64,000 nucleotides of DNA, taken from the NCBI GenBank assembly GCA_905178155.1, contig CAJINV010000018.1:600609-664608 (forward strand). The letters run 5' to 3'. A program made the translations under genes and the position numbers. Below the pieces are notes generated by a model that saw nothing but the letters and a program-made list of their open reading frames with translations, was not told where the DNA came from and searched no databases. Below, one piece after another: positions 3,916 through 50,960 of this stretch. Within the stretch, counting starts at the first letter, position 1, and each line of letters opens with the position of its first letter. The DNA comes from Amoebophrya sp. A120. Lineage: Eukaryota > Protista > Dinoflagellata.

Positions 3916-4063
3916 TATCCAGGAAAAAACACCCATCCCCATCCATTTTTTGCATGACAAACACTGCAGATTATGCATGTTTTGCATGACAAACACAGGA
4001 TTTGATGCATGTTTCACATGACAACTTGAATGGGGATGCTGGGTCCTCTTTTTTTTGTGGATA
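3916..4063. mobile_element. Introner family D (degenerate; context unresolved)
   Basis: TATCCAGGAAAAAACACCCATCCCC...TTTTGTGGATA; no clear 5-bp duplication. Confidence 0.6.
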
Positions 4064-4064
4064 G

Positions 4065-7000
4065 AGAAACATCAACACGTATGAGGACGACGGGTACGGG
4101 CAGCGACCCCCGGAAAACGTAACGCGTAGTGATGACTACCTGGTGCACAAGGTACTGCGAATAAACCACGCAACTGCGCCGGGAAGCGAAGATCATCATG
4201 GGCGGGGAGATGCCCTACATCACAACAATGAGCCGCGTCTGAACGATGAGGAGCGGGTGCAGCGGGAAATCAACGACATTGTGCTGAAAAAGGTGAACGA
4301 GGACGAGTCCAGCCCGCTATGCATTGCAAAAGAATCGCATTTAGTAAAAATTGCATCACAAATTTTATCAGCAAAGAAAAATGAAATTTGTAATGCTATT
4401 AACGGTAAAAAGGTAGGTTTGTCATGCAAGATTGCACTTAGTACGAGTGCGATACTTTTGCACAGGATACTCGCTGAAGGATGCGGATTTCGAAGATTTC
4501 CGGCGGTCCCTCGCCAACCGCGACCAGCTACGGATCAAGCAGGAGATATGGAACTGTCAGGATCGAAATTGACAAAATCGAAAAATTTGTGGTGCATAAA
4601 ATGCATGACGCAAAATACATGCGTTGCAGAGCAGGCAAGTGAGGCCGATTGTAAACCTGTTTGGGGTTATAGCTCGAGCTGCTAAAGCAGCATGAGAGGA
4701 TCAGTCTTTTTTGCCTAAACAGCATTACAAACTGGATTTAGGCACCGCCAGAATTTGTCATGCGCCGCTTCGAAACTGGGTTCGAACCGGAATCCATTTT
4801 ATGCATGACAAATGATTTCGATTTTGTCGCTTTCGATCCTGACACACCCATAGGAGAAAAAACGGGAACAGAAAATTGACAAGGCCGAGGAAAGCGGAAC
4901 AGTGATATTACAATGAAAAATGCCCCCACGACCCCAAACTTGGCAGCATTTGCATTGCAAACCTTTCCAATAGAAACATTCACCGTCTTGCATATCTCAG
5001 CATCACAAATTTTCCATGCTGAATAGCTCAAATTTGTGTTGCGAAGGAGCCCAACAGCAGCCGGATCTGTCGCGCAGAAGGCACCTTGCGGCTGCGCAGT
5101 CTAGGTTCTGCATCAGGAAGGCTCGCAATCCTTTCATGCAAGACAAAAAGCTTTCATTTGGAAACTTTGCATGACAAACTTCTGGAAATTCTGTTTTGGG
5201 GGCATTTTTCATTGCAGTAAGTGAATGTCTTTCTCTACGCCAGCGACAAGGGCGACACGAGGACTTCCACGTATGAACTGCAAAAGTATCGTACTCGTAT
5301 TGCAATCATGCATTACATATGGTAAATCCGCATTACAAATTTTATTTCTCATGCTGATGAAATTTGTAATGCATTTATACGAGTGCGATACTTTTGCAGT
5401 TCATACCACGGCGAGAGGAACGACCTTTCTGCGGGTTGGCGGCGGTGATGGTTCATTTTCTTCAAGTGGTGTGAATATCAATAAGGTAAGAACAAACTCC
5501 ACCGCTTCAGCCCTCCGTGCGGAAAAGCGGAGAGAAGCGTACGAAAGGGAGAAGGAGAAGAGGGAAATGCAGGAGTGCACCTTTCGGCCGCAGTCGCGCA
5601 CAACTGCTAAAGGTGTGAGAACATCATCAGTGGGACGAGCAGGAGCCGTGTCGTCTTCTCGACCCGTAGTGCGAGAGCCACCTGCTAGTGCAGCTGGTGC
5701 AGCGGTAGGACAGAAAACCGAAAAATCATCTCCGATTTCTTCTACTTCCGGTTCTTTCGTCTCCGCATCAGCCACGACCCCCGCAGCCGCGCCATCTAGA
5801 ACAAATATGAAACAAGTTCAGCTTGCCCCCTCCGCGTCTGTGAAATTAATTTCCGTGCCCGGCTTATGGAAGTGTCAAAATCGAAACTCGCAAAATCGAA
5901 AAAATTGTATATGCATCAAATGTAGTGGGGCACGTATGGCCTGTGTAGTTGGGGTGCTTGCAGGCAAATGAGACCGATTGCAGGCCTGTTTAGGGGAAGG
6001 CGATGCGCTGCCAGAGTAGCATGACAGGAGCAGTCTTCCTTGCCCAAACAGCATGACAGGTTGGATTTTGTTGCTTCCGAAATTTGTCATGCCCCACTTG
6101 GAAACTGAGGCTCCAACTGGTATCGAGTTTATGCATCACAAAAAATTATTAATTTCGATTTTGTTGATTTCGATTCTGACGCTTCCATACGGCTTTGAGA
6201 AATCCGCCATTCGGATGCGGCTCGGGCGGCTGCAAACGGAGTATGAAGAGAAGAAACGGCAGCTCTTGTGCGGAATATCCACTGCAAATCAAGTATCGTA
6301 CTAATATAAATCGCATGACAAATTTCCACAGCATGAGAAATGAAATTTGTAATGCGGATTTAACTTAACTACAGAAGAACTTGTAGTGCATAAAAAATGC
6401 GATTAGTACGAGTACGAACTTTTGCAGTGCATACGGAAATCTGAACGCCAAAATCACGTCTAGTTTTTCATCATCCGCCCAAACCCTCGACCGTGCGAGC
6501 TGGCGGGACAGACGGCTGGTATCCTGTGCAAAAGTATCGTACTCGTATAAATGCAAGTCTTGCATTACAAATCTTGTTCCCAAGGCAAATCCGCACTACA
6601 AATTTTATTTCTCATGCTGAGGAAATGCATTTATACGAGTGCGATACTTGTACTTCTGCAATTCATAGCTGGCGCCGCCCGACCACGCGACCGCGATCCG
6701 GGACATTGTCCTGCGGGCGGTGGAGGAGAAGGAAGGTGAAAAGAGTTATTTTCGCGAAGGCTGGAAAGGACGAGGGGCAGGGGCCGCAAGCACCTCCTGG
6801 AACAATAAGCAGTCGAGCCCCACGACCGGCGATGAAAACAGTCCACCTCAAGGTCGTGCCAGAAACAAGCAGACCGGGCTTGCTGTTGACATCAGCAGGA
6901 GTGGAAACAAGAACAGAAGCAATACAGGCAGCACGACAAAGAGGGGCAAGAATCAAAAGATAAAGACCACAACCGACGTCGTCGAGGATATTCTGCAACA

Positions 7001-7577
7001 AGTGCGGAAAATGCAGCGACGAGACGCTGCAGAGAAAGAACACAAGATAGACGAGGAGACGAAGAACAAAGACAATCTTCATACTCATCAAACGTCCAAG
7101 GCGGTGGATCATAAAAATGCTGTCAAAGGCAACCATGTGAGGACGTCGCAAGGCTCGATATTTTCCCCGCCAGGGACTACGTCTGCTCCTGATGTAGAAC
7201 AAGTGCTGGCCTTGACTCGTCAACAGACCATGGCTGTTGATGATGAGCCACAGAGTGAAGAAGAAGAGCATGAGCAAGTGGCATCAACTACAACCAAACA
7301 CCCACTCCCGCTCGCAGCCCTGCTTCACACGGACCGTAGCGCCCTGCGGAGCCGAATCCTTGCGAGGAACACGGCAGATGTTGTGGGTCACCAGCAGGAA
7401 AAAGATCCACCGCTGCGGCAGTCGCATGGCCATTGTTCGCCCGAAGTAGAGAAGATCCTTGAGCAGGAAGAACGTGTGCCCGACCGCCACCAGTTGGCAG
7501 CTGTAGTAAAGCCACCCGCCCCCGCCGCGGATGTCGATTTTGAAGTCGATATGGGCTATGTTGATGAGGACGAGTAA
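4065..7577 (+). CDS. Hypothetical protein with a coiled-coil/ECTFRP motif, interrupted by 7 introners; 5' end unresolved
   Basis: Removing the elements at 4318, 4547, 4906, 5272, 5865, 6276 and 6520 (each plus 5 bp) gives one 647-codon frame (...DESSPLKDADFEDF...QEKKREQ...EKEKREMQECTFRPQ...PGFEKSAIRMRLGR...) ending at TAA 7577. Start codon not found. Confidence 0.7.
4318..4469. mobile_element. Introner family A
   Basis: TA..TA ends, TIR TGCAAAAG.ATCGCA; DR CCCGC/CTCGC; frame restored. Confidence 0.85.
4547..4852. mobile_element. Introner family C
   Basis: TIR TATGG..TGTCAGGATCGAAA; DR GGAGA. Confidence 0.9.
4906..5219. mobile_element. Introner family L
   Basis: TIR TA.T.CAATGAAAAATGCCCCCA; DR AGTGA. 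Confidence 0.85.
5272..5405. mobile_element. Introner family A
   Basis: TIR TATGAACTGCAAAAGTATCG.ACTCGTAT; DR CCACG. Confidence 0.9.
5865..6189. mobile_element. Introner family C
   Basis: DR CGGCT; family C TIR. Confidence 0.9.
6276..6433. mobile_element. Introner family A
   Basis: DR CGGAA. Confidence 0.85.
6520..6667. mobile_element. Introner family A
   Basis: DR GCTGG. Confidence 0.9.
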
Positions 7578-7706
7578 GCAGTGGGGATGGAATTAGAAGG
7601 TGTACTCGCACTTCTAGTTCTATACGCTTTGAGTTCCTGTCGTTTTTCCGAACTTCGTTCTTCCCTTGCACGCACGGCTGGATACAGATTATCACGCCGT
7701 GCTGCA

Positions 7707-10700
7707 TCAGGAGGATTTTTGTTCTTCGAGCGGTTTTGAACAAAAGGCAGGGCGGTCGCGGTTTCATTATCCAGGAAAAAACACCCATCCCCATCCAATT
7801 TGTCATGCAAAACATGCATAATCTGCAGTGTTTGTCATGCAAAACTAACATGCTGATGGAGATGGGTGTTTTTTTTTTTCCCTCGATATTCGCTCCTTTC
7901 GCACGGCCTCCTCGAAGTCCAGCAGCCATTTTCTGGTTGTCGGACTGACGTCTTTTTCCCAGTCCGTCCCATAGTAAAAGTCCTGTTCGTACGACCAGTC
8001 TACCTTGTCGTTCTCCTCGCTGTCTCTCAGGATTCGTTTCCGATCCTCCTCACTCTGGCGAAGAAACTTTTTCCGCTGCTCCATCTGCGCGGGCGTGAGC
8101 AGTTTCAGTCGTTCTTTCCGAATCTCCTGCGTCCGCCGGAGTTCGTCCCGGCCCCGCATGAAATCCTGGATAAACTCCTTCTTCTCCATGATCTTCCGAC
8201 TTTTCTCTTTTTCGCTTTTGAAGTCCCGCGCCCACTCGGCATCCCGCTGCATTTCCTCGCGAATCTTCTTGGCTCGGAACCTTTCTTCCTTGTCGTCGAT
8301 CGCTTTCTGTTATCCCATGCGCAAACAAAGCATCGCACTTTAGTATTCGTAGTCAGTGATTGCAAGACTTTGCATGACAAGTAGAAATCGCTTTCCTAAA
8401 AAATATTCCTGAGCTCATGCTGAGACAGCAGTACAGGCTCGATTTCTTCCTCTTCGTCTGAAAAAAATTGCCGACGATCCTTTCACTGAATAGTTGTGCG
8501 ATACAACTTTTGCTAAATGCATATCTGTGCCGCGACGGCAGCGGCGTAATCGCCTTTGCGATCGATCCGCATCACGGCGCGCTGACGCAACTTGTCACGC
8601 GTGAGGTTGCGGTCCTCTCGGTAAAGGGGGTGGTCGTCACCATAAAAGGCTTTTTCCTCATTTAGCAACCGCTGCTTGACACCTGTTTTCGAGAATGGAG
8701 TGGTCGTCTTTCATTCAGATGTACAAAGTGCAGAGTGCACAAGGAAAAACGAAAAGTTGCAAATTTTCGTGGCTGAGATGAACATTTGTTAGTTTGATCA
8801 GGGGGGCAAGACGGAAAAGTTGAAACGTTCGTGCGCGGATGAAATATCGAATAAACATTGCTGCTATCGGAGCTGAGGACCGGCGGGCGCCTGGATCTTG
8901 CGGCAAAGACGAAACAAGCTTTTTGGCTCATTTTGGAACATTGAGCACCGTCCCATCTTTGCAAAATGCATGGAAAAGTCCAAAAATTGCTGCTTTCGTG
9001 GCTGAGGACGGGTGCGTGCCTGACTTATGCAAGCAAGACAAAACAATCTTCTTTTGCGCTTATTTTGCAAAATGGAAGAAAAAAGCAAAACTTTACTGTT
9101 ATCGAGGCTGAGGACGGGCGGGTGGGTGGCTCATGTAAGCAAGATGAGCTAAGCTTTTAAATTATTTTTTTTGGAGGACAGCTCGCCATCATCTACAATG
9201 AATCACGAGGGCGTAGTGAAAAAGTTCTGCATAAAGCATTTTCTTGATGTAAAAACATACTTTGAAACGCATCACGATGGCACGATGAAAAAACATCGTA
9301 TAATTTAGGTTAAGAAGTGCGATTTTGCGTGACTGTTGGACAAGCTAGACCTTTCGCGGTCATACCGTCGTGTTTCTGTTTTTTTCTTCGAAATAAAATG
9401 CTTTTCATTTCATTTTCATTTCAAAATGATTTCGCATTGCCGAAAACAAAATCTGAAACATAAAAAAAAGCCTGCGGCTGCTTGCGCATTCCGATACAGA
9501 GAGAAGACAGAGTAGGAAAAGTTAAAATAGCACTACTACAAGCGAGTGGAACAAGTTGTTGTTCGAGTATAATTCGGTTAGTACCAAGAAATCAATCATA
9601 CCAGCTGCAGACTGGTGCCACTTTTCTCGTTCGCGTCGTCTTTCTTCTTTTTTGATTTTCAGCTCCTTCACCCTTTCGTCCAGAAGTTTTGCCTCCCCGC
9701 TGGCCCACACTTCGCGCACCAGCGTTTTTTCGTTGTGGTTGATCGATTCTCTGGCGCCGACGGGCTGGTCGTGCAGTGTCGTTGGCGGAAGAAAATCGTC
9801 GGAAAACTGACTCCCGGCTTCCCACTCGAGTTGCTGGTAAGCAGGGGAAGCAGCAAGTGGTTCATAGTGGTGCACCAGCGGCGGCTCTTGTATTTTTTCG
9901 TTGTAGGTGCGATCGAAAGTACTTGTACTAGAAGTAGCAGTAGTATGCATGGGTCAGCAGAATCGAAATCGACAAAGTTGAAATGATTTGCCATGCATAA
10001 AATGCAGCCCACAAAGTGCTTGTCTTGCAGAGTAGGCAAGTGAGACAGATTGTAAGCCTGTTCTGGGGTAGAAATAGCGCTGCCAAAGCAGCATGAGAAA
10101 AGGGGCCTTCCTTACCCAAACAGCATGACAAACTGGATTTCGGCTTTACCCAAATTTGTCATGCGCCACTTGGAAACTGGGTTACAACTGGCAGCAATTT
10201 TATGCATGAGAAATTATCTCAACTTTGCCGATTTCGATCCTGACAGTTCCATAAGTAGCCCCAGGAGTCGTCCTACTTCTGGCGTAGTAGTTGTCCCTTT
10301 CGCAGTACGCTTCATCCTCACCATTCCAGCGACTTGTAGTTTCATCCTCGTCGTTATCTGCGGAAAAGTCGTGCGCCGCTGCTGTCGCTCTGACCACAGT
10401 GGTTTCTCCTGTTGGAGCAGGAGCACCACCACCCTTGCCGGTGTTTTTACTAGCAGGCCTTACAACTGTCGTCGAACTCGAAGCACCGTCTTGATACGGT
10501 GGCATACTTCTACTTTGTCCCGCGCCGTCCTCTTCGTCAACAGCACCTCCACCATCCAGTCCCGTCTGAGCGTCTTCGTCAAAAAAGTGCTGAACGTAGA
10601 CCGCTCGATCGTATTCCGCCTCTTTGCCGTCGGAAGAGAGTCTGGCGTGGTTGTTGTTCTGGCCTTATGAGCTGCAAAAGTATTGTATCGTACTCGTATA

Positions 10701-12854
10701 AATGCATTACAAATTTTTCCAGCATGAGAAAGAAAATTTGTCATGCGGATTTACCTCAAGAAAAAAATTTGTAATGCATAACTGCAATTACTACGAGTGC
10801 GATACTTTTGCAAAGCATAGGCCTCGGATGTAGCGCGACCGTTCCTGGACTCCCGAACTGTCAACTGTAAAAATGTCTGGGTCTGGAAGATTCTGCGACT
10901 TGTGATGCACGTCTTGTATGAGCCATGATGTCTGTGATGCACGCCCTAGTAGCACCACCACATATTTTTTGAGGGCATCATCTCGATGCCTATTCCGCAT
11001 GACAAATGCCCTATCCTTGTAGCAAAAATTATACTCCTTTTGCTACTCATGCAATACAGATTTTTTTGGAATCCAAATGCAGCATCACAAGTTGCATTCT
11101 TCCAGACCCAGACACTTTTACAATCCATACGGACTGTCTTCCAGCAGTTTGCTGAGACTCACATCCGTCTTCGGCCGCACCGGGCTGTATCAAGTGCAAA
11201 AGTGTCTGGGTCTGGAAGAATGCAAGATTTGTCATGCATATTTCTCATGACCCATGATAGTCTGTGATGTATGCGCTAGCATTACAGATTTTTAGAACCC
11301 TTCCTGATGCACATTCCGCATGAGAAATGCCCTGTACGTGTAGCACAAACTGTACTCCTCATCTTGCTGGTCATGCAATACAAATTTTTTTTAGAGTCCA
11401 AAAACAGCATGACAAGTTGCAATCTTCCAGACCCAGACACTTTTACATTGGATAGGCTGTTTTCCAAAACCACGTTCTCCGTCCACGGGGACTGATACGA
11501 CAGCTGTGCCGCCGGTAGTGCTCCTCTTCGCTCGCCTGGGTTGAAATAACCAAGTCGCGGCCTCTCTTCAGAAGCGCTCGCGGTGTTGACGCCTCTTTTG
11601 CAGTAGTTACCACTGCTTGCTGGTGTGCTGTCATTTCTACCTGCGTTCGGCGCGGCTCCGGTCCTTGCTTTGCTCGAAGAAGACGTCGTCGGTCGCGAAT
11701 AGTTCTGATTTCGCTTCTGTTGACCGCTCGAACTCGATGCTGAAGTAGCCGAAGCACGGCCCCCACCGCCCGCAGCGCTACCGACGTGAAAATCGCTACC
11801 CAAGCCGTCGTACCTTCCGTACGGATATCCAGAAAAAAAAAACCCATCCCCATCCATTTTTTGCATGACAAACACTGCAGCTTATGCATGTTTTGGATCA
11901 CAAAGTGGATGGAGATGGGTGTTTTTTCCTTGGTAACGGAAAGCTGTCCACTACGCTCCGGCTGTTCGGGTCCCGCAACTCGCGGTCGGCGGAATTCCGG
12001 GGCTGCGACGCCGTCAGCCGCAAGGACCATTTTTCGTTCTTCCCCCCGTCTTCCGGCGGTCGGACGACGACTTTTCTCCATCGATGTTGCTGCTGAAGCT
12101 CCAAGCACCGTTTTTCCAGGCGGCGCAGCTCCTGCTTCTCGTCATCGGAATCGTTGTCCAGTTCCTCCGGCCAAAAATGAAATTTCTTCGAGCAGGAGGC
12201 GGAGGAGGAGGATGATTTCATTTCATCCGTTCTTGCTACGGCCGCGTTCTCGCAATTGGCGACATCTACTTCATCACGAGAAACTGCAACAGATTCGTCC
12301 GGTGGCGGTGGTGCGGCAGTTCTTGCTTTATTTGTTCCTCGGCCTTCGTCCTCACCATCCGTGGCTTTGACTTTGTGTTGATCGTGTGCTTCTTGTTCAT
12401 CTTGAAAAATATTCTTAGCCAGGGACGAGAAGGTCGAGCTGGGCTGCGGTGCCAGATCTATTCAAGAAAAAAACTGTGTTAGTGTAAGTCTTTTGGGAAA
12501 ACAGCATCACAAGTTTGTCTGCCATGACAGGAAATAAAAGTTGTTATGCGCAGATAGGAACGGAAAACACACAGGATGAAGCGAGCCGAAGATCATGCAT
12601 GGCGAGCAGCATGACAAGTGTATACTGTTTTGCATTTTCTGCATCACAGATTTACACTTACATACAAAGCTTTTTTCTTGCATAAGATCAGGGACGAAAA
12701 CATTATCCTCCTCTTCGCTACGAATGCTGGAGAGGGGAAGAGAGCAGTTCTGCGGCTCGAGTGCCATCGTTCTGTGAGTGGTATCAGATATCTTTTCATT
12801 CAAAAAGGCACCATGATCGATCAAGGCCATCGGTGATGCCATTTCCATTTGCAT
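7707..12854 (-). CDS. Hypothetical low-complexity/charged protein (about 838 aa), with 8 introners and 1 GT-AG intron
   Basis: ATG 12854. Removing the elements at 12459, 11826, 11188, 10859, 10666, 9944, 8311 and 7768 plus GT-AG intron 8683-9601 gives a continuous 2517-nt frame to TGA 7707. Confidence 0.65.
7768..7888. mobile_element. Introner family D
   Basis: TIR GAAAAAA..ACACCCATC; DR TTCAT/TTCGC. Confidence 0.8.
8311..8523. mobile_element. Introner family A (degenerate)
   Basis: DR TCTGT; frame restored. Confidence 0.75.
8683..9601 (-). other. Canonical GT-AG intron (919 bp)
   Basis: GCTG|GTATG...AAACAG|GTGTC; the phase-1 join keeps the frame. Confidence 0.6.
9944..10253. mobile_element. 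Introner family C
   Basis: DR AGTAG. Confidence 0.9.
10666..10819. mobile_element. Introner family A
   Basis: DR GGCCT. Confidence 0.9.
10859..11129. mobile_element. Introner family B
   Basis: TIR TGTAAAA.TGTCTGGGTCTGGAAGA; DR CGAAC/CGGAC; left end TG. Confidence 0.9.
11188..11454. mobile_element. Introner family B
   Basis: DR GGCTG. Confidence 0.9.
11826..11935. mobile_element. Introner family D
   Basis: DR ACGGA. Confidence 0.9.
12459..12684. mobile_element. Introner family G
   Basis: TIR TAT.CAAGAAAAAA; DR AGATC; similar to 28084. Confidence 0.85.
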
Positions 12855-15699: not shown

Positions 15700-16824
15700 T
15701 AACCAGGGACATGATCAAAGAAAGCTGTACAAAGATAATTTTTTTCATAACAAAACGAAACTCGAGCAAGAAAAGAAATTTTCATCCCCGCCGAAAAAGC
15801 TCCAACTACCTCTTCAGCCGCAGCTTAGAATACCAGTCCTACAAGCCGGGCAAGACAGGCAAAAGCTACAAGCTGTCGCGACACGTTGAAAGCCTTCTGA
15901 CAGTGAAGAAAGGATTTGTTGTTGATTACTGCGAAACTGATTTTGAAAAGTGGTGCTGCCGATTCTAGGGAGGCGAAAAGGCAGCTAGAATTATTTTCAT
16001 AGTGTAGTTCTCGAAAACAAAGCAAGTCTGATTCACCGCATAGAATAAATTATGTAGAAAGATAGCCATTAACAATTCTTACTGTACTTTTTTCGTACCA
16101 CTTGTTTTACTGCAAGGTCATCAACACTGAAGTCGAGAGGTGCTGATCACGACCATGCGTAAAAATAATTACACAGAAATAGACGGAGTTCTGAATTGAT
16201 GTCTGATTCTGAATAATTGCCGTGCTGGTCGTGTGAGAGAGACTGGGTCGTAGTAGTGCAAACCAGGCTCAAACACACGAGTGTAATAGATTGTAACTCG
16301 AATATAAGAATAGAATTCGGAAATAATTTACCTGTAAGAATAGAATGGAAACAAACATAAAAGCTCAAATATGTGTAAAATTTAACTCCACCGATAGTAA
16401 AAATTAGCAGTTGCTTGTCAAGGCGTCTGATATTTGATTTTTTACTATAAATAGCTGTGTGCAACTGCGATCTAGATACTGAAACTTTTTCCAACTGCTC
16501 AAACCTTTTAGTTTTACTCCTCAAGCACTATAAATTTTTTTTCCAGAGTAGAAATGAATTTGAGGTCTTCATAACAAAATCGGATTAGCAGCACCGTGGC
16601 TTGTAGTTTGACGCTGTTCAGTTGAGTTCTGATGTGCTAAATCCTGTCTCTTTTAACAAGAGCTTGTCACGTTTCGACAAAGACGGAACCACGAAAAGTG
16701 AAAGTCGTCTTCATCTCCTTGTGATTTACCTTGTGGAAGTAATCTTTTTCATGATCTGCTGTTAGATTTTTTTGCTCTTCTCCTTCCCCGCTGGCAAAAT
16801 CGTGATCTCTCACTCTCTCTACTT

Positions 16825-40748: not shown

Positions 40749-43700
40749 TCACAGCTCCTCCCTCCTCGCCCTTTTCCTCAGCGCCTTCTCTGGCGGTCGA
40801 AAGCCCTGCGTTAGTTCGTAGGTTCCTTTCCCAGGGATGTATTTTTCCGTGGGCAGCGAGTCCACCATTTTGTAGTAGTATTTCGTTGCCAGGCCGGAGT
40901 GTTTCCCGACTTTGGACAGCGAATTCATAGCCACGTCCATTGCGGCGTAAATTTCGTGCAAAATGATTGCCTGTTTGATCAGCTTTTCCCGGCGCCGCTT
41001 CAGCAGCTCCACGATCTCGCGCTCAGACGTGGCTGAGGATGACGAGGCTTCTAGTTCTACTTGTACTCTTTCATCTTCTTTCAGATGCACATCACTTTCA
41101 CGACCTGCTTTCTTCACCACCGGCGCGCCGTCCTCTGCTCCCATGATCGCAGTTGTCCTTCTCCTCCATGCGTGTCTGAGTTCTTTTTCGCACGCCACAG
41201 CCCCCGTTGCACTTGCAGCTGGTCCGCTGTCAACTACCTCGTCCACAGGAGGGTCCGCATCCGTCTCGGAAGGCGGAAAAGATCTCCTCCTCGTGGAGGT
41301 CCTTTCAGCTGTCATCAGCTTGACGCATTCGTTGTACTTGGAAGCCAATCGAAAAATTTCGTTTTCGTCGACCATCGGGTTCACTTCTACTTCAGTTCCA
41401 GCGGGATCATGCTTATGCTGAGGCGCAGCTTCGGCTTGGGCTATTTGTCGACCTTCGGCCTTTTCCTTTTCCTCATTTTCTTGGGCTGAATTTATTCCTG
41501 CGTCTGTATGATCTGCACTCGCCACACGAACTAAATCATGATCTGCAGTGCCGCGGCTCCGATGTCCTGCTTTCTGCAATAATTTCCGGTACTGGGTGTC
41601 GATGTCTTTGATGTAAATGGCGTTGCCCCAGAGAGAGCTGGAACTCAATCGGGTGGGCTTCATGCCGCGCCCGGTCAGGTCGCTGAGCCGGTGGAAAACG
41701 AAGTCTCGGTTGCGTTGTCAAATGCAAATGTGTCTGGGTTCTCTGGATCAGGATCAGTCGCGCAACCGACGTTTGTCATGCTGTTCTTGCATGACCGAGG
41801 AGGTCTGGCATGCAAGCCCTAGCATCACACGTGGTCTTGAGAAGGTCTCCCAATGCCGAACCCGCATGACAAATCTCCTCTTTCGGAGTCATCAAATTGA
41901 AATATTGCCCGCGTTTATTGGTGTTCATGCATGACAGATCTTTGGGTTGTCTGAAGTTTGCATCACAACCTGCATCCTTCCAGACCCAGACACATTTGCA
42001 ATGCATATGCGCAGGAAGATGTCGATGTCCGCAAACAGAGGCATGTCCTTGTACAATTTCTGAAAATGCTATCCCCAGTAGAAAACAACCCATGAAGATC
42101 CGGATCCATTTTTTGCATGACAAACACTGGACTTGATGCATGTTTTGCATCACAAATTGGATCATGGGTAAGATGGGTGGTCTTTTTTCATGGATAAATG
42201 CACCTCCACGTCGATGACCACTACCTCCTCCAATGATTCCTTATCAAATGCAAATATGTCTGGGTCTGGAACAAGGTTGCAACTTGTCATGCTAATTCTG
42301 GATCATGCAAAAATCTGTGTTGCATGCGTGCCAAAAGCTGCTCACTTTCGACCAAGTTGGCAGGGAGTTTCTCATGCAGGACAGGCATGGTAGGAATCGC
42401 ACAGAATCTGTCATGCTATGTGCTGCATTCCAGACGACATGGACCTTGGAAAATCTGCATGACAAGTCTCGGAATCTCCCAGACCCAGACATTTTTGCAT
42501 TTGATATTCCTCCGCCCCCTGAAAAACCAGCATCTCCGCTCCCTGCACATCGACCTTCAAAATATCACAGGAAAAAACTGTTTCACTGTGATGACAACTT
42601 TGCAAGATCTGCATCACAAGCTTGCTACACATGACACTGAAAATTTGTCATGCGCGCTTCCTAAGGGAAATAAAACACGCTTGCAAATCCAATGTCTTGC
42701 AGGTGTAGCAAGACAAAGAGTTCTGTGTCCCATTTTCTGCATCACAAGTTCACAGTGAAACAGGTTTTTCTTGCGATACAAAAAATCGATGTCGTAGTTG
42801 TTCGGCCGCAAAGTGTATGAACTGCAAAACTGTATCGCACTCGTACTAAAAATTGCAGATTTGCATGACAAATCTTCTTCCTACGCTAGAAGAGCATTAC
42901 AGATAAATTCTATTTCTTGTCATAATTTGTGATGCAATTCTTACTAAGTACGATACTTTTGCAATGCATAAAATGTAGTCCAGTTTTACCGTCGGCACCG
43001 ACTGTTCCAGTACGACCTTGTAGGCTTCCTCTAGTTGGTCGTATTTGGACACCACATCCACGTTGGGCTCGAGTAGGGAGGACGACAACTCTATCCACAG
43101 GGAATTTCAACAACATCCCGCCTCACACGTAGAAGTTGCAAATACGGTAGTTTATGCAGCATGTCATGTCAAAACTTGTTTGCAATCCTATTCTTTCAGC
43201 ATGACAAGTGGCACTTTTTCAGTAGGCCGCGATTACATTTGTCGTTATGCATGTTGTGCGTGTAGTGCGGCTTCTACGGGACGTCATCAAAATTCGCATT
43301 CTATAAGCCCATTCTGGGTGACGAAAAATGTCCGGCGGCTCCCGTCACCGACGTAGTGGGGAAACAGAAGCATGTTCGGGTAGGATTTCCGGTACTTTTC
43401 GTTGGGGTCAAACCCGATCACCTGGCAGAGATCTTGCATCAGCAGCCGATGGTAAACGTGGGGCTTCCCGCGGACCTGAAGGCATCCTGGGGGAAAAATA
43501 TCGCTTTCGTAGGTCGTCCTTCTAGTAGTTGTTCTTTCTTCAGAACGAGCTGAATTCAATCACAGAATGCATATACGACGACCATACTTCCATGTTTGCA
43601 ATCCCTCAACATACTAACTGACTATCTAGAACGGGCGCGCGCGGCGGTCCGGGCGCCGGCCCACTGAAGTGGCCCTGTAAGGAGGAACGCCCGGACGGGG

Positions 43701-46700
43701 AGCGGCGGAACGTATCGAGGTGGAAAGTGTAAGGACCAGGAGAGACGTATGGATGACCAGACGGACGCAGTCAATCCGCGAAATTTCAAAATTTTATCTT
43801 TATTGTGCGAGCAACAGCTAAAGAGTATGTAGAAGAAGAGTTCTGACGCAGAGCCACACAGAGGCGTCGTGGCACGCTGACAAAAAGCAATGAGGTTGAA
43901 AGGTTTTTAATTAATGTTGACGCAATAACCAAGCAATCCGCGAAATTTCAAAATTTAATTTTAATGAAGACAACAAATCCGCGAAATTTCAAAATTTTAT
44001 TCTTATCACTGGGAGGAGACTTACAAGAATCGTCTGGGTTTCGAGCATCATCGCTACACTGAAGTTGCGAGTCGGCTGGCGGCTACTGCGACCAGTAGTG
44101 CGTAGTATTCAACAAAATGTTGCACTTCGTAGTAGCGTATTAGAAAAGTCTCAGTTTTCGTACGCGGAAATTTCCTCCGATCTGTGGTTCCTCCACGACC
44201 CACCTGAGTGCCGTGCAGGAACGTCCGAGGCAGAGTGAAATTTCACAACACGAGTTCGACGTGCGCAAGTAAAGGCAAGGTGCTCAGTGGCCCATCGGTG
44301 TTCAGGTGAAGTCGCCACCGTGGAAGAAGGAGGTGCAGGTGCCTAGTACTACTTACGACTACGATAACGATAGCTCCTGTAGAAGTTTCGATGCATAAAA
44401 TAGCGCCAACGTCGACGATCTGGATTTTTGGGAAGTTGTGCGACTGAAGCAGAAGCTATTCCGTGAGAATTCACCATCCCAATTTATTTTTTGCATGTGA
44501 AATTTGAACTTCAACAACTTCCTACATTTTTTGCATGACAAATTTCTCTGATGGACGTGATGGACGTGGTTAATTTTCAGGGAATAAAAGCTGCAGGTCA
44601 GGCACACGAGAGTTGCCGGCTGTCGTGCTCGCCGTACTTCCAGCAGCAGGCGGCGGTGGCGCGGATGAAGTGGTTCGCGATCCTCCTCCCGCTGCACTTC
44701 TAGAGGTGGCACTGTCGGTTCTACTTAAGGCCACCGAGCCGGCTGCTGCTCCAACATCCGACGAGGAAGAGGACGACGATCCTAAGACCTCTCGGATATC
44801 AAACTGGCTCCAATTCTCCAGCATCCACGCATGCCTGCCGTCTGCAACACCGGAGTCGAACACCACACTGCTGAGCCCCTGCATCTCCTTGTCCAGGTGC
44901 TTTTTCGCGTTTTCTTCGTCACTCTGCACCTGGATACTGAGACCCTGGAAAAAATCCATCTTTGCAAGCAGCTCCCAAATGGGGAACTGCATGCCGTAAA
45001 ATTTTCGCAGGTCCAAATCGTGTGGAAAGGTGATTTATGAATTGCAAAAGTATTGTACTCGTATAAATGCATTACAAATTTCCTCAGCAAGAAAAATGAA
45101 ATTTGTAATGCTGATTTACCTTAAGAAAAAGATTTGTGATGCATGATTGCAATACGAGTACGATACTTTTGCACAGGATATGATTTTGCGTTCGTAAATC
45201 TCCGCCACAAGATTTTCGTTCTCCTCCTCCGTTTGCGACTGCGCATTCGGGTTATGCATTTTTGCAGAATCATCAAACAACTAGCGCATGCATCTTCATG
45301 TTCATGCTCGGCCGAGTGACAAGTTTGCTCAAGATAAACTTATTTTTTGTTTATGCATCATTCAGGCAACATCAAACGTAACAAGAACTGCAAGGCAAAT
45401 CTGTCATGCAGTGTGGTCGCAATTCGTGCTACTACCACGCTAGCAATTTTTCTGCACTGGATACAGATTCTGGAAGAGCAACAGGGGCTCGGCGGTCGTC
45501 GCGTTCGCTTGCTGGTCCTCCTCCACCTGAACACGCGATCCTGCCTTGCTGTCCGTGCCACTCGAGCCACTTGCCGTTGAACTCGGTACAGCTGGCAAGC
45601 TAGCGCTGCTCGCACCGCTAGACTTCGTCGTCGGAGAGGACGATGCATCTCGATCTCCTGCTTCGATGGCAATGGCAGCGCCGTCTACTTCTGCACCACT
45701 GCTCCCGCCCCTTCCGGGTTTCTTATAGGCTTTCAAGTATTTCACGCGGGTAAGAAACGCCTGCGCCTGGTTATAACCCGCTCAGCTGTTACAATCTCAA
45801 ACGTTACGGTTGTACAATAGAATATGGAAATCTGTGATGCAAAATGTGCATGACCTAGCCTACTCCCACAGCATTGCGCATGACAAGTTCTGGACTCCAA
45901 AACCGCAATTGAATCTGGCGAAATTTGTATTGCAGAAAGTGAAACGCTGTGCGGGTCTGTCATGCTCATCATACACCACAAAATCCAGATTCTTTTGTAA
46001 CGGTTGGGATTGTAACGCTTAGGCGGGTCATACTGGTGCACATACTCGAACGCCTGTACGCGGTCTTGGGCTGCGACGTTGATGAAAGCCAGGTTGATGG
46101 TATCCACAGGAATATTAATCTCCCGGACACGACGTACGAATCGGAATCATGTGGCTCCTTGTTCCGCATGACTACAAACCTTTTGCAGCATGACAAGTGA
46201 GTTGCTTCTTGTTCCAAGTTCGTGAAATGTGTGATGCACTTTGGACAATGTACAGGGAAATTTGTGTTGCATACAGCGCTAGCCACGCCATCGCGACCGG
46301 GCACTTGTTCAAGTGCTCCCGTTGCAGCACTCCCTCGGTCAGGAAGTGGCACCACGATTCGTGCAGGTCCAAGTCTAGGTCATCAAGCTTTTGCGGAAGC
46401 TGCAGGTCGAAGTGGTTTTCCCAGCCCTGGCTGCAAGGGTCCTGTAGGAGAACGCTGTCTTCATTTTGCTCACCGTCTCGCCCGCTGATGCCCTCAGCAG
46501 GAGCTGCGCCATGCTTGATCCTGATACTGTCGGAAATCACGTAGAGGCATCCACAAAAAAGGACCCAGCACCATCCCCATCCTTTTTTTGGATAGTAAAC
46601 TACACAGGGTCTGATCTTGCATGTTTTGCATGACAAATTGGATGCTGGAGATGGGTCTCATTTTTTGTGGATCATAAGAGCAGCGGGAAGATCACGCGCG

Positions 46701-47914
46701 AGAAGTCGTAGAGGAAAAATAGTTTCCCTATCCACAAAAAAACAACCATGATCCCCATCCATTTTTTGCATGACAAATACTCAAAATTATGCGTGTTTTG
46801 CATGACAAAGTGCATGGCTATGGTTGTTTTTTCTTGGATATTCCAGTTGATCAGATCGATGAGCAAACTCCACTCCACAAGCCAGTGTGCCCCCGCCAGT
46901 TCGTTGCTAATGTTATCTTCGGTGTTGGTGGCGAGCCAGGCCAGGCGGACGGAGAGAACGCCGAGCAATTCCTCCGTAGTCAACTGGCGGACGTTTTCCT
47001 GGTCGACGTTGACGTCGAGAAAACATTTGAACTTCACAATCGTCGGCCACAACAAAGTATGCATTGCAAAACCAAAAGTAACGCACTCGTACTGATACGG
47101 ATCGCAATCACGCATGACAAATCTCCTACCTTAGGTAAAGCAGCATCACAAGTTCCACTTTTCTTCTTGCCAAAATTTGTGATGCAATTCCTACTAGTAC
47201 GACTACGATACTTTTGCATTGCATACAAAGTGTTCACCAGTTGCTTGATCCCTTCGCCCGAAAGTTTGTTCCGGCCCCCCGCCTGCAAAATTTCCGTGCC
47301 GAACTCGGCCAAGGGCGTGCGCACCTGCTCCCAGTCGATCTGCAACTCCCGGATCTGCTGGTAATTGGGGTCTTCGTACGGATATGCATTGCAAAATTAT
47401 CGTACTAGTAGACTACTAGTACAAAAAAAAATTACTACTGTAGTAAAGATATGCATTGCAAAATTACTACTGTAGTAATTGCATTGCTTAGCATATACAA
47501 CTGAAATTTGTAATGCTGTTTTACCTTAGAAAGGAGATTTGTCATGCATAGCAGCATTTACTACGAGTACGATAGTTTTGCAGAGCATAACGGATTCGGG
47601 TGGTGCGCGTTGCAACGAGTGATTTGTTCGAGTTGCGGCTGTTGTAAAGGCAGCTCCCCCTCCTGCGGGTTTAATATTTCTCGTTCCACTTCTTGCGCTG
47701 TTACAGGAGCGAGGAGGTTCAGGTTGTGGGGATCACCAGGCAGGAAAAACAACCAGGGCGCAGACAACCAAAATGGTGAGCGTGCATAAGTCGTCGCGTG
47801 GGTCCGGGTCGTGGAGCAAATTATCAGCTGAAAGCCGAGAAGAAAACTTAAGAGCGGCTTGAACTTGGAGGTCAAGAACGACGTCAGGGGGCTAGTTGTA
47901 CTTGTCGCCCCCAT
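40749..47914 (-). CDS. FkbM-family (Methyltransf_21) SAM-dependent methyltransferase with long N- and C-terminal extensions (about 1,134 aa); 15 introners and 1 GT-AG intron
   Basis: The spliced frame contains IQIVDVGA, VIGFDP, VGDGSRRTF, SSLLEPN, TVKLD, IDFLKVDVQGAEMLVFQGA, EVHFQKLYKDMPLFADIDIFLR and WGNAIY. Hydrophobic N-terminus. CDS 3405 nt. The join of the N-terminal half depends on intron 43476-44356. Confidence 0.75.
41716..42007. mobile_element. Introner family B
   Basis: DR TGCGT/TGCGC; left end TG. Confidence 0.85.
42070..42196. mobile_element. Introner family D
   Basis: DR AATGC. Confidence 0.85.
42242..42506. mobile_element. Introner family B
   Basis: DR TTCCT. Confidence 0.9.
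42563..42778. mobile_element. Introner family K
   Basis: TIR TATC.CA.GAAAAA.CTGTTTCACTGTGA; DR CAAAA; restores IDFLKVDVQG. Confidence 0.9.
42816..42970. mobile_element. Introner family A
   Basis: DR AAGTG/AAATG. Confidence 0.88.
43092..43305. mobile_element. Introner family E (degenerate)
   Basis: DR AACTC/AGCCC; frame restored (QNGLSSSLLEPN). Confidence 0.7.
43476..44356 (-). other. Canonical GT-AG intron (881 bp)
   Basis: GTC|GTAAGT...CTTCAG|GTC; phase 0, links the DVGA motif to the rest of the FkbM domain. Confidence 0.65.
44457..44586. mobile_element. Introner family D-like
   Basis: DR GAAGC/AAAGC. Confidence 0.78.
45036..45180. mobile_element. Introner family A
   Basis: DR TGATT. 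Confidence 0.9.
45253..45463. mobile_element. Introner, unclassified/degenerate
   Basis: TA ends; DR CGGGT/CAGAT; frame restored. Confidence 0.65.
45772..46032. mobile_element. Introner family I
   Basis: TIR TAT.ACCCGC...GTTACAATC.CAA.CGTTAC; DR CTGGT. Confidence 0.88.
46101..46273. mobile_element. Introner family E
   Basis: DR eroded (GATGG/CAGCG); element+5 restores the frame. Confidence 0.75.
46548..46676. mobile_element. Introner family D
   Basis: DR AGAGG/AGAGC; left end CA. Confidence 0.8.
46729..46840. mobile_element. Introner family D
   Basis: DR TTCCC/TTCCA. Confidence 0.85.
47058..47225. mobile_element. Introner family A
   Basis: DR CAAAG. Confidence 0.88.
47383..47589. mobile_element. 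Introner family A with a duplicated left end
   Basis: DR ACGGA; GATATGCATTGCAAAATTA repeated at about 47448. Confidence 0.82.
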
Positions 47915-49307
47915 TTTCTTGGACAAGTGTTGGATGCCAGCACGACCACGTGGGTGTGGAGCTCCAGCTGGGTTATTTCAGCGGTAGAAACGTCGTAATT
48001 TGCAGCTCATAGCAAATTTTTTGTTCATCTTTGTTTGACTTTCCTTCAAACGAAACTAAGCATAAGCAGCACGACGACAACTTTATTTTTCAGAACTTAC
48101 AACTACTGGGTGCAGCGGCCTGTTTCATCTACAAGTAGATCTTCTAGTACCGACAAACTCGATGTAAAAAATTGTTGATCTTGAAGATTCGTGATGTAGA
48201 TGTTTATTAATACAATAGTTGTACAGGAGAAACCTGTTTACTGACAGACGAATTGTACGAGCCTCAGCACCACGCACAGTATCAGACAAAAATCATGGAA
48301 CTGCCTGGGAGCAGAGGGCGAAAAAAAGAAAAGAAGAGCCTTCACTTCAGCGGTCAGTCGGTTGCGGTTCATACACATTGAAAAACAATAAAGAGCAGAT
48401 CCTCATGATTGGTACTGGAATCAAAGGAGATCAGCAGGTTGATCACAAGGAAAATTGCGTCTCCACGATGTCCAACACATATGTAAATTGAACAGGATGT
48501 AGTTGGCGAAGATCGTACTTCTTGTGGATATGGATCCCAGCACTCCGCAATAGAAACTGCTCTGCACGACCGCTACATGGGTGAGTGAAAGAAAAAAAAA
48601 CGAACTACGGCAAGAACAGGCCTTCAAGCTGTAAACTAGACGTCCTCTTCAGGTGTGACACGAGCATGTTGAGTTCTATGTGATTGTTTCCTTTTGTGGA
48701 GCGCAATTGTTGTTCACGTTTATTACCAAGCCAAAATTTCAGTTCGTATTGTACAAAGTTCAGCGACAAGTTCTTTACTTTTTTCCCGGAGCAGACGAAT
48801 TATTCCAAAAAGCGCCAACGGTGATGCGAGCTGCGAGTCCTCCATTGTTCGTCGTGATGATGTGCTTTTCTGTACAGAGGACCACTCGTCTACTTCACTA
48901 CTGGCGATCCGTTAGCCAGCACTAACAATGAAGTAGCTCCTCACAGCACAACAAGATCATGCAGCGACTCATCTACTACAGGAAAGGCAAAGGCATGGGC
49001 TTTTCCTTTTCTCCTCCTGTTTTCGTGACTGTGAGAGCCACGCGTGCCTGCGAAACGAGCCTTACAACTGTAGTACATTGTCTGCTCGCAACACGCTGCG
49101 CCACGCCTGCATCAAACAAACTGGTATAAAAATGTAAATGAGATTAAGACTTCTATCGGCATCGACATGAAATGACGCGAAACGCAAACTGGTAGAAAAA
49201 TTATGAACGAACTAGTGCAAGTTCTTTCGATAACGATATCTGGATCATCTGAAATAGACGCAAACTGGTAATAGTAAATAAGCAGGAAATTGATCATATT
49301 GATCAAG

Positions 49308-49559
49308 TATCAAATGTAAAAGTGTCTGGGTCTGGAAGAAAGCATGTTTGTCATGCTTGTCTGGCATGACTCTTAAATCTGTCATGCACGTTGCCCAAGA
49401 GCCGCTTTTTTCTTTCATGCGGAGACGCAATTTGTCATGCAGAATAGGCAACACCTACAAGCTCAGAAGTTTGTCATGCTGAGCCAGCACTTGTGGCCTC
49501 CTCATGCTACGCCACTCAGCATCAGAAGTTTCCAGACCCAGACATTTTTACATTTGATA
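49308..49559. mobile_element. Introner family B outside the CDS (probable 3' UTR)
   Basis: DR TCAAG; about 20 bp downstream of the stop at 49581. Confidence 0.88.
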
Positions 49560-49580
49560 TCAAGACGACTATGTTGACTA

Positions 49581-50960
49581 TCACGCCACGGACGCTGACT
49601 TCGCTAGCCGCTTCTTCTTCTCGGCATTCCGCTTTTCGAGTGCCCTTTTGGCGTCTGGGAGCTAGTATCCTGTGTAAAAACCAACGCACCCACCTCCCCA
49701 GAGTCAAGATGGGGATTTTTTTTTGCTACCCAAACCAACGGCTGTTGCGCATGACAAGTTCTAGTCTTGTTGGCTCGCAGTGTCATCCTGCTATGCTAGC
49801 AGGGCAGCAGCTGCAGCACATCAAATCGGCCATCTCAGCCTGATTCTAGCATGACGAGCTCCTAGATAGCAATAGAAAATCGTCCTCATACTAGGCGGCC
49901 TGCGCATGATGAGAAACGTTTGAGGCTTGCGCTTGCGCATGGAGATTTTGATTTGCGTGACAGGTCTGGGGCGGGGACGTTTTTACATCGGATAAGTAGT
50001 CTTGCTTCATCACGCGGAGCTCTTCGAAGAGGTCGGGCGGATACTTCAGGTTATGCATTGCAAATGCGTCTGGGTCTGAGAATAAAGTCACGACTTGGAT
50101 TGCTAGACTTGCATTCCCGTACAAAAAATTTGTATATTGCAGCATGACCGACAACACGCGACTTATATGATTGTCATGCAACATTGCGGTTTGTAAAAAT
50201 GCGCGTTACAACGCTTGACCATGACGACCTGGAGACAGTAGCAGCGCCAAAAAACTTTGCCATGCTTGACTGCATGAAGTAGAAGCGTCTTGGTCATGCC
50301 GAACTCAGCAACACAACTTTGCAGACCTAGACATAGGTCATGCCGAACTCAGCAACACAACTTTGCAGACCCAGACATTACATTTGCAAGGGATATAAGT
50401 ACAGGGCACGCGACGCCTTTTCTGTGTGCTTGAAGAGCGGCGGATTGATGTTGATGGGCGGGGGTCCGATTGCAGGCGGCAATGGTTCGGGGCCCATCGG
50501 CTTCGCCGTGTCCGGGGGTGCACTATGCATTGCAAAAGTTCATCTCCCGTCGCACAACGTAGTTTTTTTTCATGGCCACGGATAAGAAAATCGCATCGGA
50601 CCCGGCTTCCAGCACAGATTCAAATACTTAAAATGCGCTGCATTTATTTTGGAAATTTCGACGTGCGGGAACAAAGAAGCTACGAACAGCACGAAACCTA
50701 AACTTTTGCAGAGGATAGGGATCCTTGCCGTCCAATTTGGCCAATGCCTCCACTTCCGCACGGTCTGCAGCTCGGTTCTCCTTGGTTTTGTGGTAGTGCT
50801 TGATCTTTTGCCGGTGAAAGTAGATGGGGTAGAGGTGCTTCTCCCGTTGTATGTTGTGGCCGACCATCCAATCCTTGTGCTGCTGGCCCATTTTCTCCGG
50901 ATCCGGTGGGGCGACGTCTGTGGTGGTCGTGTTGATTTTTATCTTGGTTTTCTTCTTCAT
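49581..50960 (-). CDS. Hypothetical basic/proline-rich protein (at least 165 aa), 3 introners
   Basis: MKKKTKIK...LDGKDP|PPDTAKP...ALYL|KYPPDLFEELRVMKQDY|FPDAKRALEKR...SVA* after removing 50524, 50052 and 49666. The start may lie further upstream. Confidence 0.55.
49666..49994. mobile_element. Introner family F
   Basis: DR GCTAG/AGTAG. Confidence 0.8.
50052..50395. mobile_element. Introner family B with an internal tandem duplication of about 44 bp
   Basis: DR CAGGT/TAAGT. Confidence 0.78.
50524..50717. mobile_element. Introner, unclassified
   Basis: TATGCATTGCAAAAGTT...AACTTTTGCAGAGGATA; DR eroded; element+5 restores the frame. Confidence 0.7.

What the first reader, a model, noticed from the sequence alone, without database searches (positions are those of the whole stretch)
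4318..50395. A shared GCAT(G/C/T)ACAA motif is scattered through otherwise unrelated introner families
Seen: families A-L have different TIRs and lengths, yet nearly every copy carries several GCATGACAA/GCATCACAA/GCATTACAA words or their reverse complements (TTGTCATGC etc.), e.g. 17664-17818, 27738-28017, 30736-31046, 31902-32137 and 42563-42778. By eye the word is rare in exons, in the LINE and in the larger transposons. Inference: it is a common cis-code, either the binding site of one trans-acting transposase that mobilises all families or the site of an RNA-binding factor that marks these introns for removal.
Basis: partly seen in the sequence, partly recalled or inferred. Interest (0 to 1): 0.78.

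Follow-up and report, generated by a model that had tools for sequence, protein, structure and literature searches.

The report
Helically phased DNA code in introners

Summary
In detail: 121 of 125 exact words lie in TAT...ATA inverted-repeat elements with 5-bp target duplications (9.4 vs 0.08 per kb). These match the published Amoebophrya A120 introners; RNA-type contigs lack them exactly. The word is part of a looser site, GCAWNACARR, and is not scattered. Same-direction pairs sit 31-33 bp apart in 11 of 12 family consensuses (chance mean 2). The remaining site pairs peak at 10.4-10.5 bp, the B-DNA turn, with nothing at 11 (0 of 300 nulls). Element direction on the mRNA is random (71:68). 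Elements without close relatives carry far fewer sites, and some without sites still split long reading frames. So the code is read on DNA; an RNA splicing mark is unlikely. Most likely it binds the mobilising machinery, but no transposase was found, a direct decay test was inconclusive, and a host chromatin protein remains possible. Families share ends and some are related, so 'unrelated' is too strong. Neither my literature searches nor the scan's earlier notes showed this motif.

The parts
3916..4063 (.). element, family-7-like ends, no 5-bp duplication left; tandem sites 32 bp apart
4318..4469 (.). introner, family 1A; skipped in RNA-type contigs (157 nt)
4547..4852 (.). introner, family 6; skipped (311 nt)
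4906..5219 (.). introner, family 9; skipped (319 nt)
5272..5405 (.). introner, family 1A; skipped (139 nt)
5865..6189 (.). introner, family 6; skipped (330 nt)
6276..6433 (.). introner, family 1A; skipped (163 nt)
6520..6667 (.). introner, family 1A; skipped (153 nt)
7768..7888 (.). element, family 7 (all sites one direction); removal not shown
8311..8523 (.). degenerate introner with a single site; skipped (218 nt)
9944..10253 (.). element, family 6
10666..10819 (.). element, family 1A
10859..11129 (.). element, family 0
11188..11454 (.). element, family 0
11826..11935 (.). element, family 7
12459..12684 (.). element, family 2
16800..39015 (-). host dynein heavy chain gene holding 23 elements; removing 19 of them (each plus 5 nt) from 25090-38395 gives 2174 codons without a stop
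17084..17357 (.). introner, family 0; skipped (279 nt)
17453..17606 (.). introner, family 1E; skipped (159 nt)
26623..26888 (.). introner, family 0; skipped (271 nt)
27227..27533 (.). introner, family 6; removal shown by contig arithmetic
28084..28295 (.). introner, family 2
28497..28772 (.). introner, family 0
28840..29100 (.). introner, family 0
30016..30169 (.). introner, family 1A
30408..30714 (.). introner, family 6
32207..32471 (.). introner, family 0
32523..32807 (.). introner, family 4 (sites sense on the mRNA here, opposite to 27738)
32928..33078 (.). introner, family 1E
33169..35341 (.). family-0-type introner stretched to 2173 bp by a nested 1.9-kb insert without the exact word; still removed whole
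35414..35564 (.). introner, family 1E
35754..36066 (.). introner, family 6
36505..36810 (.). introner, family 6
36859..37119 (.). introner, family 0
37689..37861 (.). introner, family 11
38649..38801 (.). element, family 1A
41716..42007 (.). element, family 0
42070..42196 (.). element, family 7
42242..42506 (.). element, family 0
42816..42970 (.). element, family 1A
43092..43305 (.). degenerate element, one site
44457..44586 (.). short element, one exact word
45036..45180 (.). element, family 1A
45253..45463 (.). degenerate element, no exact word, two looser sites
45772..46032 (.). element, family 10
46101..46273 (.). element, family 1E
46548..46673 (.). element, family 7
46729..46840 (.). element, family 7; tandem sites 32 bp apart
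47058..47225 (.). element, family 1A
47450..47589 (.). element, family 1A, with a duplicated left end from 47383
49308..49559 (.). element, family 0
49666..49994 (.). diverged family-4-like element
50052..50395 (.). diverged element with family-0-type ends
50524..50717 (.). old element with terminal cap but no site at all

Best explanation
The word is the core of a site, GCAWNACARR, repeated 2-9 times per family consensus on a 10.4-10.5 bp lattice inside non-autonomous inverted-repeat transposons that are removed from the mRNA as introns, and it likely binds, on double-stranded DNA, the protein that mobilises all the families. Shown: enrichment, conservation against spacers, 31-33 bp tandem pairs, the helical lattice, the outermost site 36-59 bp from each end in the family consensuses, random direction on the mRNA, a shared TAT cap and 5-bp duplication, and exact removal from RNA-type contigs. 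Inferred: one transposase, or a transposase plus one DNA-bending partner, loads on these sites along one face of the helix. It would wrap an element of only 110-320 bp so that the two TAT ends meet for cutting. An integrase-like DDE enzyme (IS3EU/GingerRoot or Ginger2 type) is the best guess. Splicing would be guided by the terminal hairpin, and the sites would decay once a copy is fixed.
For: Core mismatch to consensus is 0.04-0.09 against 0.14-0.29 in spacers in 7 of the 8 families with 10 or more copies. There are 19 same-direction pairs at 31-33 bp in 11 of 12 consensuses; random placement gives means of 2.4 pairs and 2.1 families, maxima 8 and 7 in 3000 runs. With those pairs left out, the other 145 pairs score 0.43-0.45 at 10.4-10.5 bp and -0.11 at 11.0; 0 of 300 jittered nulls reach it, and 3 and 2 of 300 with one family per related group. 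The same peak appears per copy (3384 pairs) and in window copies alone (268 pairs). Direction to the host frame is 71:68 in 139 elements, 8:4 for one-direction family 4. Family 4 copies in opposite orientations are both absent from one 13.4-kb dynein contig: the gaps of 518 and 1037 nt match exactly. Strong-site density falls from 1.77 to 0.49 per 100 bp as nearest-neighbour identity falls and duplications decay. 8 of 17 elements without a strong site split frames open for 97 codons or more on both sides. Duplication length is 5 bp in all families, 0.93 identity per position. Precedent: hAT subterminal repeats bound by the transposase BED domain (PMC10368747, passages).
Against: No autonomous element or transposase was found in the window or in 742 kb of partly overlapping loci; Farhat et al. 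found none in A120 and took that to rule out general transposase mobilisation (PMC7789003, section 16). The direct decay test was inconclusive: in copies with mutated duplications, motif cores diverge +0.007+/-0.006 and spacers +0.012+/-0.008. In family 0 the core mismatch is 0.15. At the stricter site threshold the reduced family sets give only 7 and 14 of 300. Overall element length is not in helical phase across families (R<=0.21). The age series is ascertained on intact ends, and low-identity elements may be other, motif-poor families or false calls (at least one is a tandem repeat). The site-free introns have no RNA support here. Nothing here separates a transposase from a host DNA-binding protein.
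Confidence: 0.6

Rival explanations
1. The sites are read on DNA, but by a host architectural or chromatin protein (nucleosome, DVNP or a sequence-specific factor) that the elements have hijacked; the phased array favours copying or escape from silencing only indirectly.
For: A 10.4-10.5 bp lattice over 100-300 bp fits any surface that wraps DNA. The fitted common face lies about 2.2 bp from the middle base, near the CA steps, which are flexible steps (recalled knowledge). No transposase was seen.
Against: The exact word is almost absent outside elements, including the intergenic and upstream DNA (4 of 125). The outermost outward-pointing sites cluster at 36-37, 45-48 and 57-59 bp from the element end (descriptive only, the period is not resolved over this range). 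AA/TT autocorrelation in interiors is weak (0.07 or less).
Confidence: 0.18
2. Shared ancestry only: all families descend from one element whose 40-bp module was duplicated and shuffled, and the motif is a relic without present function.
For: Spacers inside the 31-33 bp pairs are 38% alike across families against 31% for shuffles (sd 0.8 points), and 12 of 66 family pairs show extra similarity, 5/10 and 3/6 strongly. All share the terminal cap.
Against: Cores are conserved islands among variable spacers within families. The lattice persists when the tandem modules are locked in the null. Cross-family hits are short, except 2/8, 5/10 and 3/6.
Confidence: 0.08
3. A DNA-bound mark for splicing: a protein bound to the phased sites on DNA flags the element to the splicing machinery during transcription, which would explain orientation independence in an organism reported to lack U1 snRNA.
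For: DNA-level, orientation-free code; 55 of 57 window elements carry a word; post-insertion conservation is not excluded; U1 was not detected in A25 or A120 (PMC7789003, passages).
Against: Sites thin out in elements without close relatives, and 3 frame-splitting elements have no site even at the lowest threshold while keeping paired ends. The element at 8311-8523 has one site and is removed.
Confidence: 0.08
4. One reading: an RNA-binding factor recognises the word in the pre-mRNA and marks the intron for removal.
For: The elements are removed without GT-AG, so an unusual signal is needed. The word resembles Rbfox and PUF-type RNA motifs (recalled, not tested).
Against: Random direction on the mRNA (71:68; in dynein 26 sense and 33 antisense words). 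One-direction family 4 is removed in both orientations. The period is 10.4-10.5 and negative at 11, the A-form RNA value. Sites in families 4 and 7 cannot pair across the ends.
Confidence: 0.04

Closest known systems
Amoebophrya A120 introner elements (Farhat et al. 2021, PMC7789003: abstract, passages, section 16, supplement legends; Gozashti et al. 2025, PMC12130899: passages and 19 of 58 A120 rows of supplement file 8)
   Same: Non-canonical introns with inverted repeats starting TAT, then about seven variable bases, then three or more A; short direct repeats; splice sites 1-5 nt from the inverted repeat; family lengths (106, 148, 208-227, 252-261, 278, 305, 319-340 bp in the table rows seen) like those here; classed as 'TIR DNA, unknown'.
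   Different: The parts of these papers that I saw describe no internal motif, no 31-33 bp pairs and no helical lattice (text searches; figures not seen). Farhat et al. group by inverted repeat into 1954 families and argue against a general transposase; the shared sites argue for one system.
hAT subterminal repeats, e.g. Hermes bound by BED domains (Lannes et al. 2023, PMC10368747, passages)
   Same: Short repeated sites inside the TIRs, in both orientations, bound by the transposase and needed beyond the tips.
   Different: Hermes sites are 4 bp and asymmetric between ends; hAT duplications are usually 8 bp (hAT5: 5 bp, PMC12730594 passage). Here the site is 9-12 bp, fills the whole element and is phased at 10.5 bp.
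IS3EU/GingerRoot and Ginger2 integrase-like DNA transposons (PMC10045372 and PMC12730594, passages)
   Same: IS3EU/GingerRoot end TA..TA (fungal IS3EU: TAYGG..CCRTA, TIRs over 30 bp), like the TAT(C/G) ends here; Ginger2 makes 4-5 bp duplications; Gozashti et al. report an A120 TIR family with Copia/Gypsy-like homology.
   Different: IS3EU/GingerRoot duplications are usually 6 bp, here strictly 5; no transposase sequence is in hand, so kinship is a lead only.
Paramecium IESs (PMC3408717, one passage)
   Same: Short transposon-derived inserts in coding DNA with a 10-bp helical signature attributed to end-to-end looping.
   Different: IESs are cut from DNA and their length is periodic; here internal sites are periodic, overall length is not, and removal is seen in RNA-type contigs.

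Membership tests
Amoebophrya A120-type introner elements | Inverted repeats beginning TAT, about 7 variable nt, then 3 or more A | tested here: met
   Cap profile from 114 window ends; 895, 895 and 890 of 906 ends have T, A, T (partly ascertained by the search). Family 6 has the A-run weaker.
Amoebophrya A120-type introner elements | Short direct repeat at the exon-intron border | tested here: met
   5-bp register 0.93 identity per position; registers 3, 4, 6, 7, 8 at 0.2-0.33 (451 elements; the 5-bp register was part of the element score).
Amoebophrya A120-type introner elements | Removed from mRNA without GT-AG | tested here: met
   Element plus 5 nt is missing in contigs of runs X3-X6, which also skip GT-AG introns; these runs are RNA by guess, 2 samples of 1 study.
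Amoebophrya A120-type introner elements | The host is that organism | not tested
   Inferred from element anatomy only; the runs' organism is coded and no genome is held.
MITE-like non-autonomous TIR transposon with subterminal transposase sites | TIRs, target duplication, many copies, no coding capacity | tested here: met
   494 elements, 14 clusters and 49 singletons; family medians 112-322 bp.
MITE-like non-autonomous TIR transposon with subterminal transposase sites | An autonomous partner with the same ends | tested here: inconclusive
   None in the window and 742 kb of partly overlapping loci, a small part of a genome.
MITE-like non-autonomous TIR transposon with subterminal transposase sites | The transposase binds the internal repeats | not testable with these tools
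   Needs a binding assay; only the spacing pattern is shown.
IS3EU/GingerRoot | TA..TA termini | tested here: met
   definition from PMC10045372
IS3EU/GingerRoot | 6-bp target duplication (usual) | tested here: not met
   5 bp; the 6-bp register is at background. Not filed as a member.
IS3EU/GingerRoot | Integrase-like DDE transposase | not testable with these tools
   No coding element found; the search by handle was not available.
RNA-binding-protein splicing enhancer | Motif on the sense strand of the pre-mRNA | tested here: not met
   71:68 orientation; family 4 removed in both orientations.

The most novel reading that the evidence does not exclude
All of these introner families, tens of thousands of introns in the published A120 genome, are cargo of one undescribed transposition system with TAT ends and 5-bp duplications. 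Its protein polymerises on or wraps the whole 110-320 bp element through a helically phased site array, while the terminal hairpin alone lets the host splice the element out in either orientation. Mobility and splicing would be two separate codes, one on DNA and one on RNA, and the motif would be the bait to catch the missing enzyme.
Probability: 0.3. Interest if true: 0.82.

Novelty: new variant of a known kind. Interest (0 to 1): 0.64.

Why it matters
How Amoebophrya introners move and how they are spliced are both stated as open in the paper that described them, which found no transposase in A120. A site shared by all families and phased to the DNA helix says that the families answer to one DNA-binding protein. 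It gives a defined 40-bp bait for pull-down, a probe for finding the autonomous element in a whole genome, and a way to separate mobility signals from splicing signals in a system that has created more than half of a genome's introns.

Tried and rejected
No whole genome is held; search by locus handle was not possible. A scan of viral contigs for the family-0 end found 0. No listed holder is on record as RNA. Element lengths in steps of about 52 bp looked real in the window but fail with more families (171, 240, 281, 322 bp) and show no 10.5-bp phase: rejected. A palindromic reading of the motif (TGY-N3-RCA) was replaced by the directional profile. Long TAT...ATA pairs were all nested insertions, opposite-facing copies or an inverted duplication (L063). 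Pfam found no transposase in 93 of 104 unspliced ORFs of 280 aa or more from the loci (11 overlapping or duplicate frames left out), nor in 12 window ORFs; interrupted or short transposases would be missed. Rfam: 0 matches. The decay test by target-duplication age was inconclusive. No target-site preference beyond mild GC. One search crashed after printing the pairs and was rerun. Dropped rows: 20 of 457 locus elements with fewer than 3 of 5 duplication matches before clustering; 1 of 18 site-free elements (L072). Literature searches: searches gave the papers cited or unrelated ones; searches gave none. Figures of the supplements, supplement files 13-14 of PMC12130899, and Roy et al. 2023 and Huff et al. 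2016 (titles seen in reference lists only) were not seen and could bear on novelty.

Full report
Observation. The window holds 125 exact words. A search for inverted ends with flanking duplications, completed by hand, gave 57 elements of 110-344 bp plus one interrupted copy. 121 of the 125 words lie in them, 9.43 per kb against 0.08 per kb elsewhere; the LINE, the 2.1-kb element and the nested insert hold none. Markov models give means of 1.2 (elements) and 2.1 (window). The five quoted elements hold three words each; 55 of 57 elements hold at least one and 40 of 57 at least two.

What the elements are. They begin TAT(C/G), carry an A-run at positions 11-14 and a family-specific inner repeat at about 15-30, and are flanked by 5-bp duplications. 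This is the anatomy published for Amoebophrya A120 introners (PMC7789003); the organism is inferred from this, not tested. Twenty-three elements interrupt a dynein heavy chain gene. Removing 19 of them, each with 5 nt, from 25090-38395 leaves 2174 codons without a stop. Contigs of runs X3-X6 (RNA by guess; they also skip GT-AG introns) lack element plus 5 nt at ten listed element joints. One 13.4-kb contig shows the listed gaps, and its unlisted stretches of 518 and 1037 nt equal the window minus 14 more elements exactly. One contig of run X1 (kind unknown) also lacks the element at 26623 and differs at 7 bases; it may be a second allele or paralog with an empty site.

More copies. A pattern scan of metagenome contigs with the family-0 end gave 148 loci from one assembly, so family 0 is over-sampled. 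I called 457 elements there (the caller found 49 of the 57 curated window elements and 1 in a shuffled window). With the window's 57 and after dropping 20 with poor duplications, 494 elements form 14 clusters and 49 singletons. Twelve family consensuses were built. The word is enriched in this assembly too: 7.7 against 0.44 per kb.

The site. A family-weighted profile gives (T/A/C)GCA(T/A)NACA(A/G)(A/G)T, about 4 sites per copy. Core bases differ from the consensus at 0.04-0.09 in seven families and 0.15 in family 0, spacers at 0.14-0.29. Direction relative to the ends differs by family: inward in 1A and 1E, outward in 0, 3, 5, 6, 9, 10, all one way in 4 and 7. So the sites are not a by-product of the terminal hairpin.

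The grammar. Same-direction sites are 31-33 bp apart in 11 of 12 consensuses (19 pairs); random placement gives 2.1 families and 2.4 pairs on average, at most 7 and 8 in 3000 runs. Opposite-direction sites fall at about 16, 34, 47-49, 58-59, 65-69, 90 and 100-103 bp. With the 31-33 pairs left out and one offset fitted, the other 145 pairs peak at 10.4-10.5 bp (0.45, 0.43) and give 0.03 at 10.0 and -0.11 at 11.0. None of 300 nulls that jitter the gaps but keep the tandem modules reaches this; with one family per related group 3 and 2 of 300 do; with stricter sites 1, 7 and 14 of 300. Per-copy data and window copies alone peak at the same place. A period of 10.5 is B-form DNA and 11 is A-form RNA (established knowledge). 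Two families have length modes one turn apart (251-252 and 262; 311 and 321-322), but length is not phased across families.

DNA or RNA. In 139 locus elements whose host frame could be oriented, element and frame agree 71 times and disagree 68 times; family 4 gives 8:4 and family 7 2:1. The two family-4 copies in dynein face opposite ways and both are missing from the same contig. Both fold with paired ends (z -10.3 and -3.0). Among 488 elements, strong sites per 100 bp fall 1.77, 1.54, 1.16, 0.96, 0.49 from the highest to the lowest nearest-neighbour identity class, while duplication matches fall 4.88 to 3.65 and TAT ends 1.91 to 1.73 of 2. The ends were used to find the elements, so their retention is biased upward. 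Of 17 elements without a strong site, 8 split frames that are open for at least 97 codons on both sides after removal of element plus 5 nt. None of the 8 has an exact word, 5 have no relaxed word, and 3 have no site at the lowest threshold; no RNA covers them. Against a clean story, the family-stratified test using mutated duplications as a clock could not tell motif from spacer decay (+0.007+/-0.006 vs +0.012+/-0.008; 91 of 442 copies).

Are the families unrelated? Not fully. Spacers within tandem pairs are 38% alike across families against 31% in shuffles, and 12 of 66 consensus pairs exceed motif- and cap-preserving shuffles at z>3, most clearly 5/10 and 3/6. Most cross-family matches are short. 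The best picture is one superfamily built from rearranged 40-bp modules, with spacing held more tightly than spacer sequence.

Mechanism. Most likely (0.6) the sites are subterminal and internal binding sites for the mobilising machinery, arranged on one helical face so that a short, stiff element can bend and bring its ends together. Binding, bending and the enzyme's identity are inferred. Precedents: hAT subterminal repeats (PMC10368747) and helical phasing in Paramecium IES excision (PMC3408717). TA..TA ends recall IS3EU/GingerRoot, but those usually make 6-bp duplications (PMC10045372; PMC12730594), so I do not file the elements there. Gozashti et al. note an A120 TIR family with Copia/Gypsy-like homology. 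No coding element was found here. A host chromatin protein (0.18), mere ancestry (0.08), a DNA-bound splicing mark (0.08) and an RNA-binding factor (0.04) are the rivals.

Novelty. The introners are known. The internal site and its phasing were not in the passages, sections and supplement text that I saw of PMC7789003, PMC12130899 and PMC9860276. Ten library searches listed no paper whose title or abstract start points to it; subscription papers and figures were not seen. The scan's earlier notes hold nothing on this genome or sequence and three odd introns in other genomes (unchecked notes). Verdict: a real and better-organised feature than first described, a new variant of a known kind, interest 0.64.

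Noticed in passing
window 4318-4469, 17084-17357, 17453-17606, 37689-37861: Where the two 5-bp duplications differ, the RNA-type contigs show which copy is kept. If one register applies, all four cases agree only with 4 nt from the upstream copy and 1 nt from the downstream copy: the cuts lie 1 nt before and 4 nt after the hairpin. Only one case fixes the upper bound.
   Followed up: partly
window 13593-15692: A 2.1-kb element with long GC-rich inverted ends and no exact motif, in what looks like the dynein 3' UTR, is skipped exactly (2100 nt, ends GT..AC) in contigs of X4 and X6; spliced or polymorphic is not known.
   Followed up: no
window 33306-35180: A 1.9-kb insert nested in an introner, with its own short tandem repeats near 34070-34180; the whole 2173-bp element is still removed from the dynein contig.
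   Followed up: partly
window 30715-30735: A micro-exon between two introners; run X5 shows 10 letters retained between the flanking exons.
   Followed up: partly
window 26500-27095 and 30249-31440: Runs X1 and X5 show a second dynein haplotype or paralog with scattered base differences; in X1 it lacks the element at 26623.
   Followed up: no
window 17868-18083: A canonical GT-AG intron holds two exact words in the same direction 74 bp (7 turns) apart; possibly a relic of an element that gained normal splice sites.
   Followed up: no
element ends, positions 15-30 (e.g. window 36859, 17664, 11826): Each family has its own inner-TIR signature, often a 6-mer repeated twice; it could be a second, family-specific code or only hairpin pairing.
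   Followed up: no
window 52966-59610: LINE-like ORF of 2214 aa with reverse transcriptase and RNase H matches, flanked by a short-unit satellite at about 52320-52850 and 60030-60200.
   Followed up: partly
window 60846-61167: A TAT...ATA pair with an 18/18 inverted repeat but no 5-bp duplication and no strong site.
   Followed up: no
L063 3276-5434 and 14921-17079: A 2159-bp perfect inverted duplication running to the locus end; gene duplicate or assembly artefact, not a transposon.
   Followed up: partly
L015 2628-6083: Two adjacent ORFs carry the two halves of a C5 cytosine methyltransferase domain.
   Followed up: no
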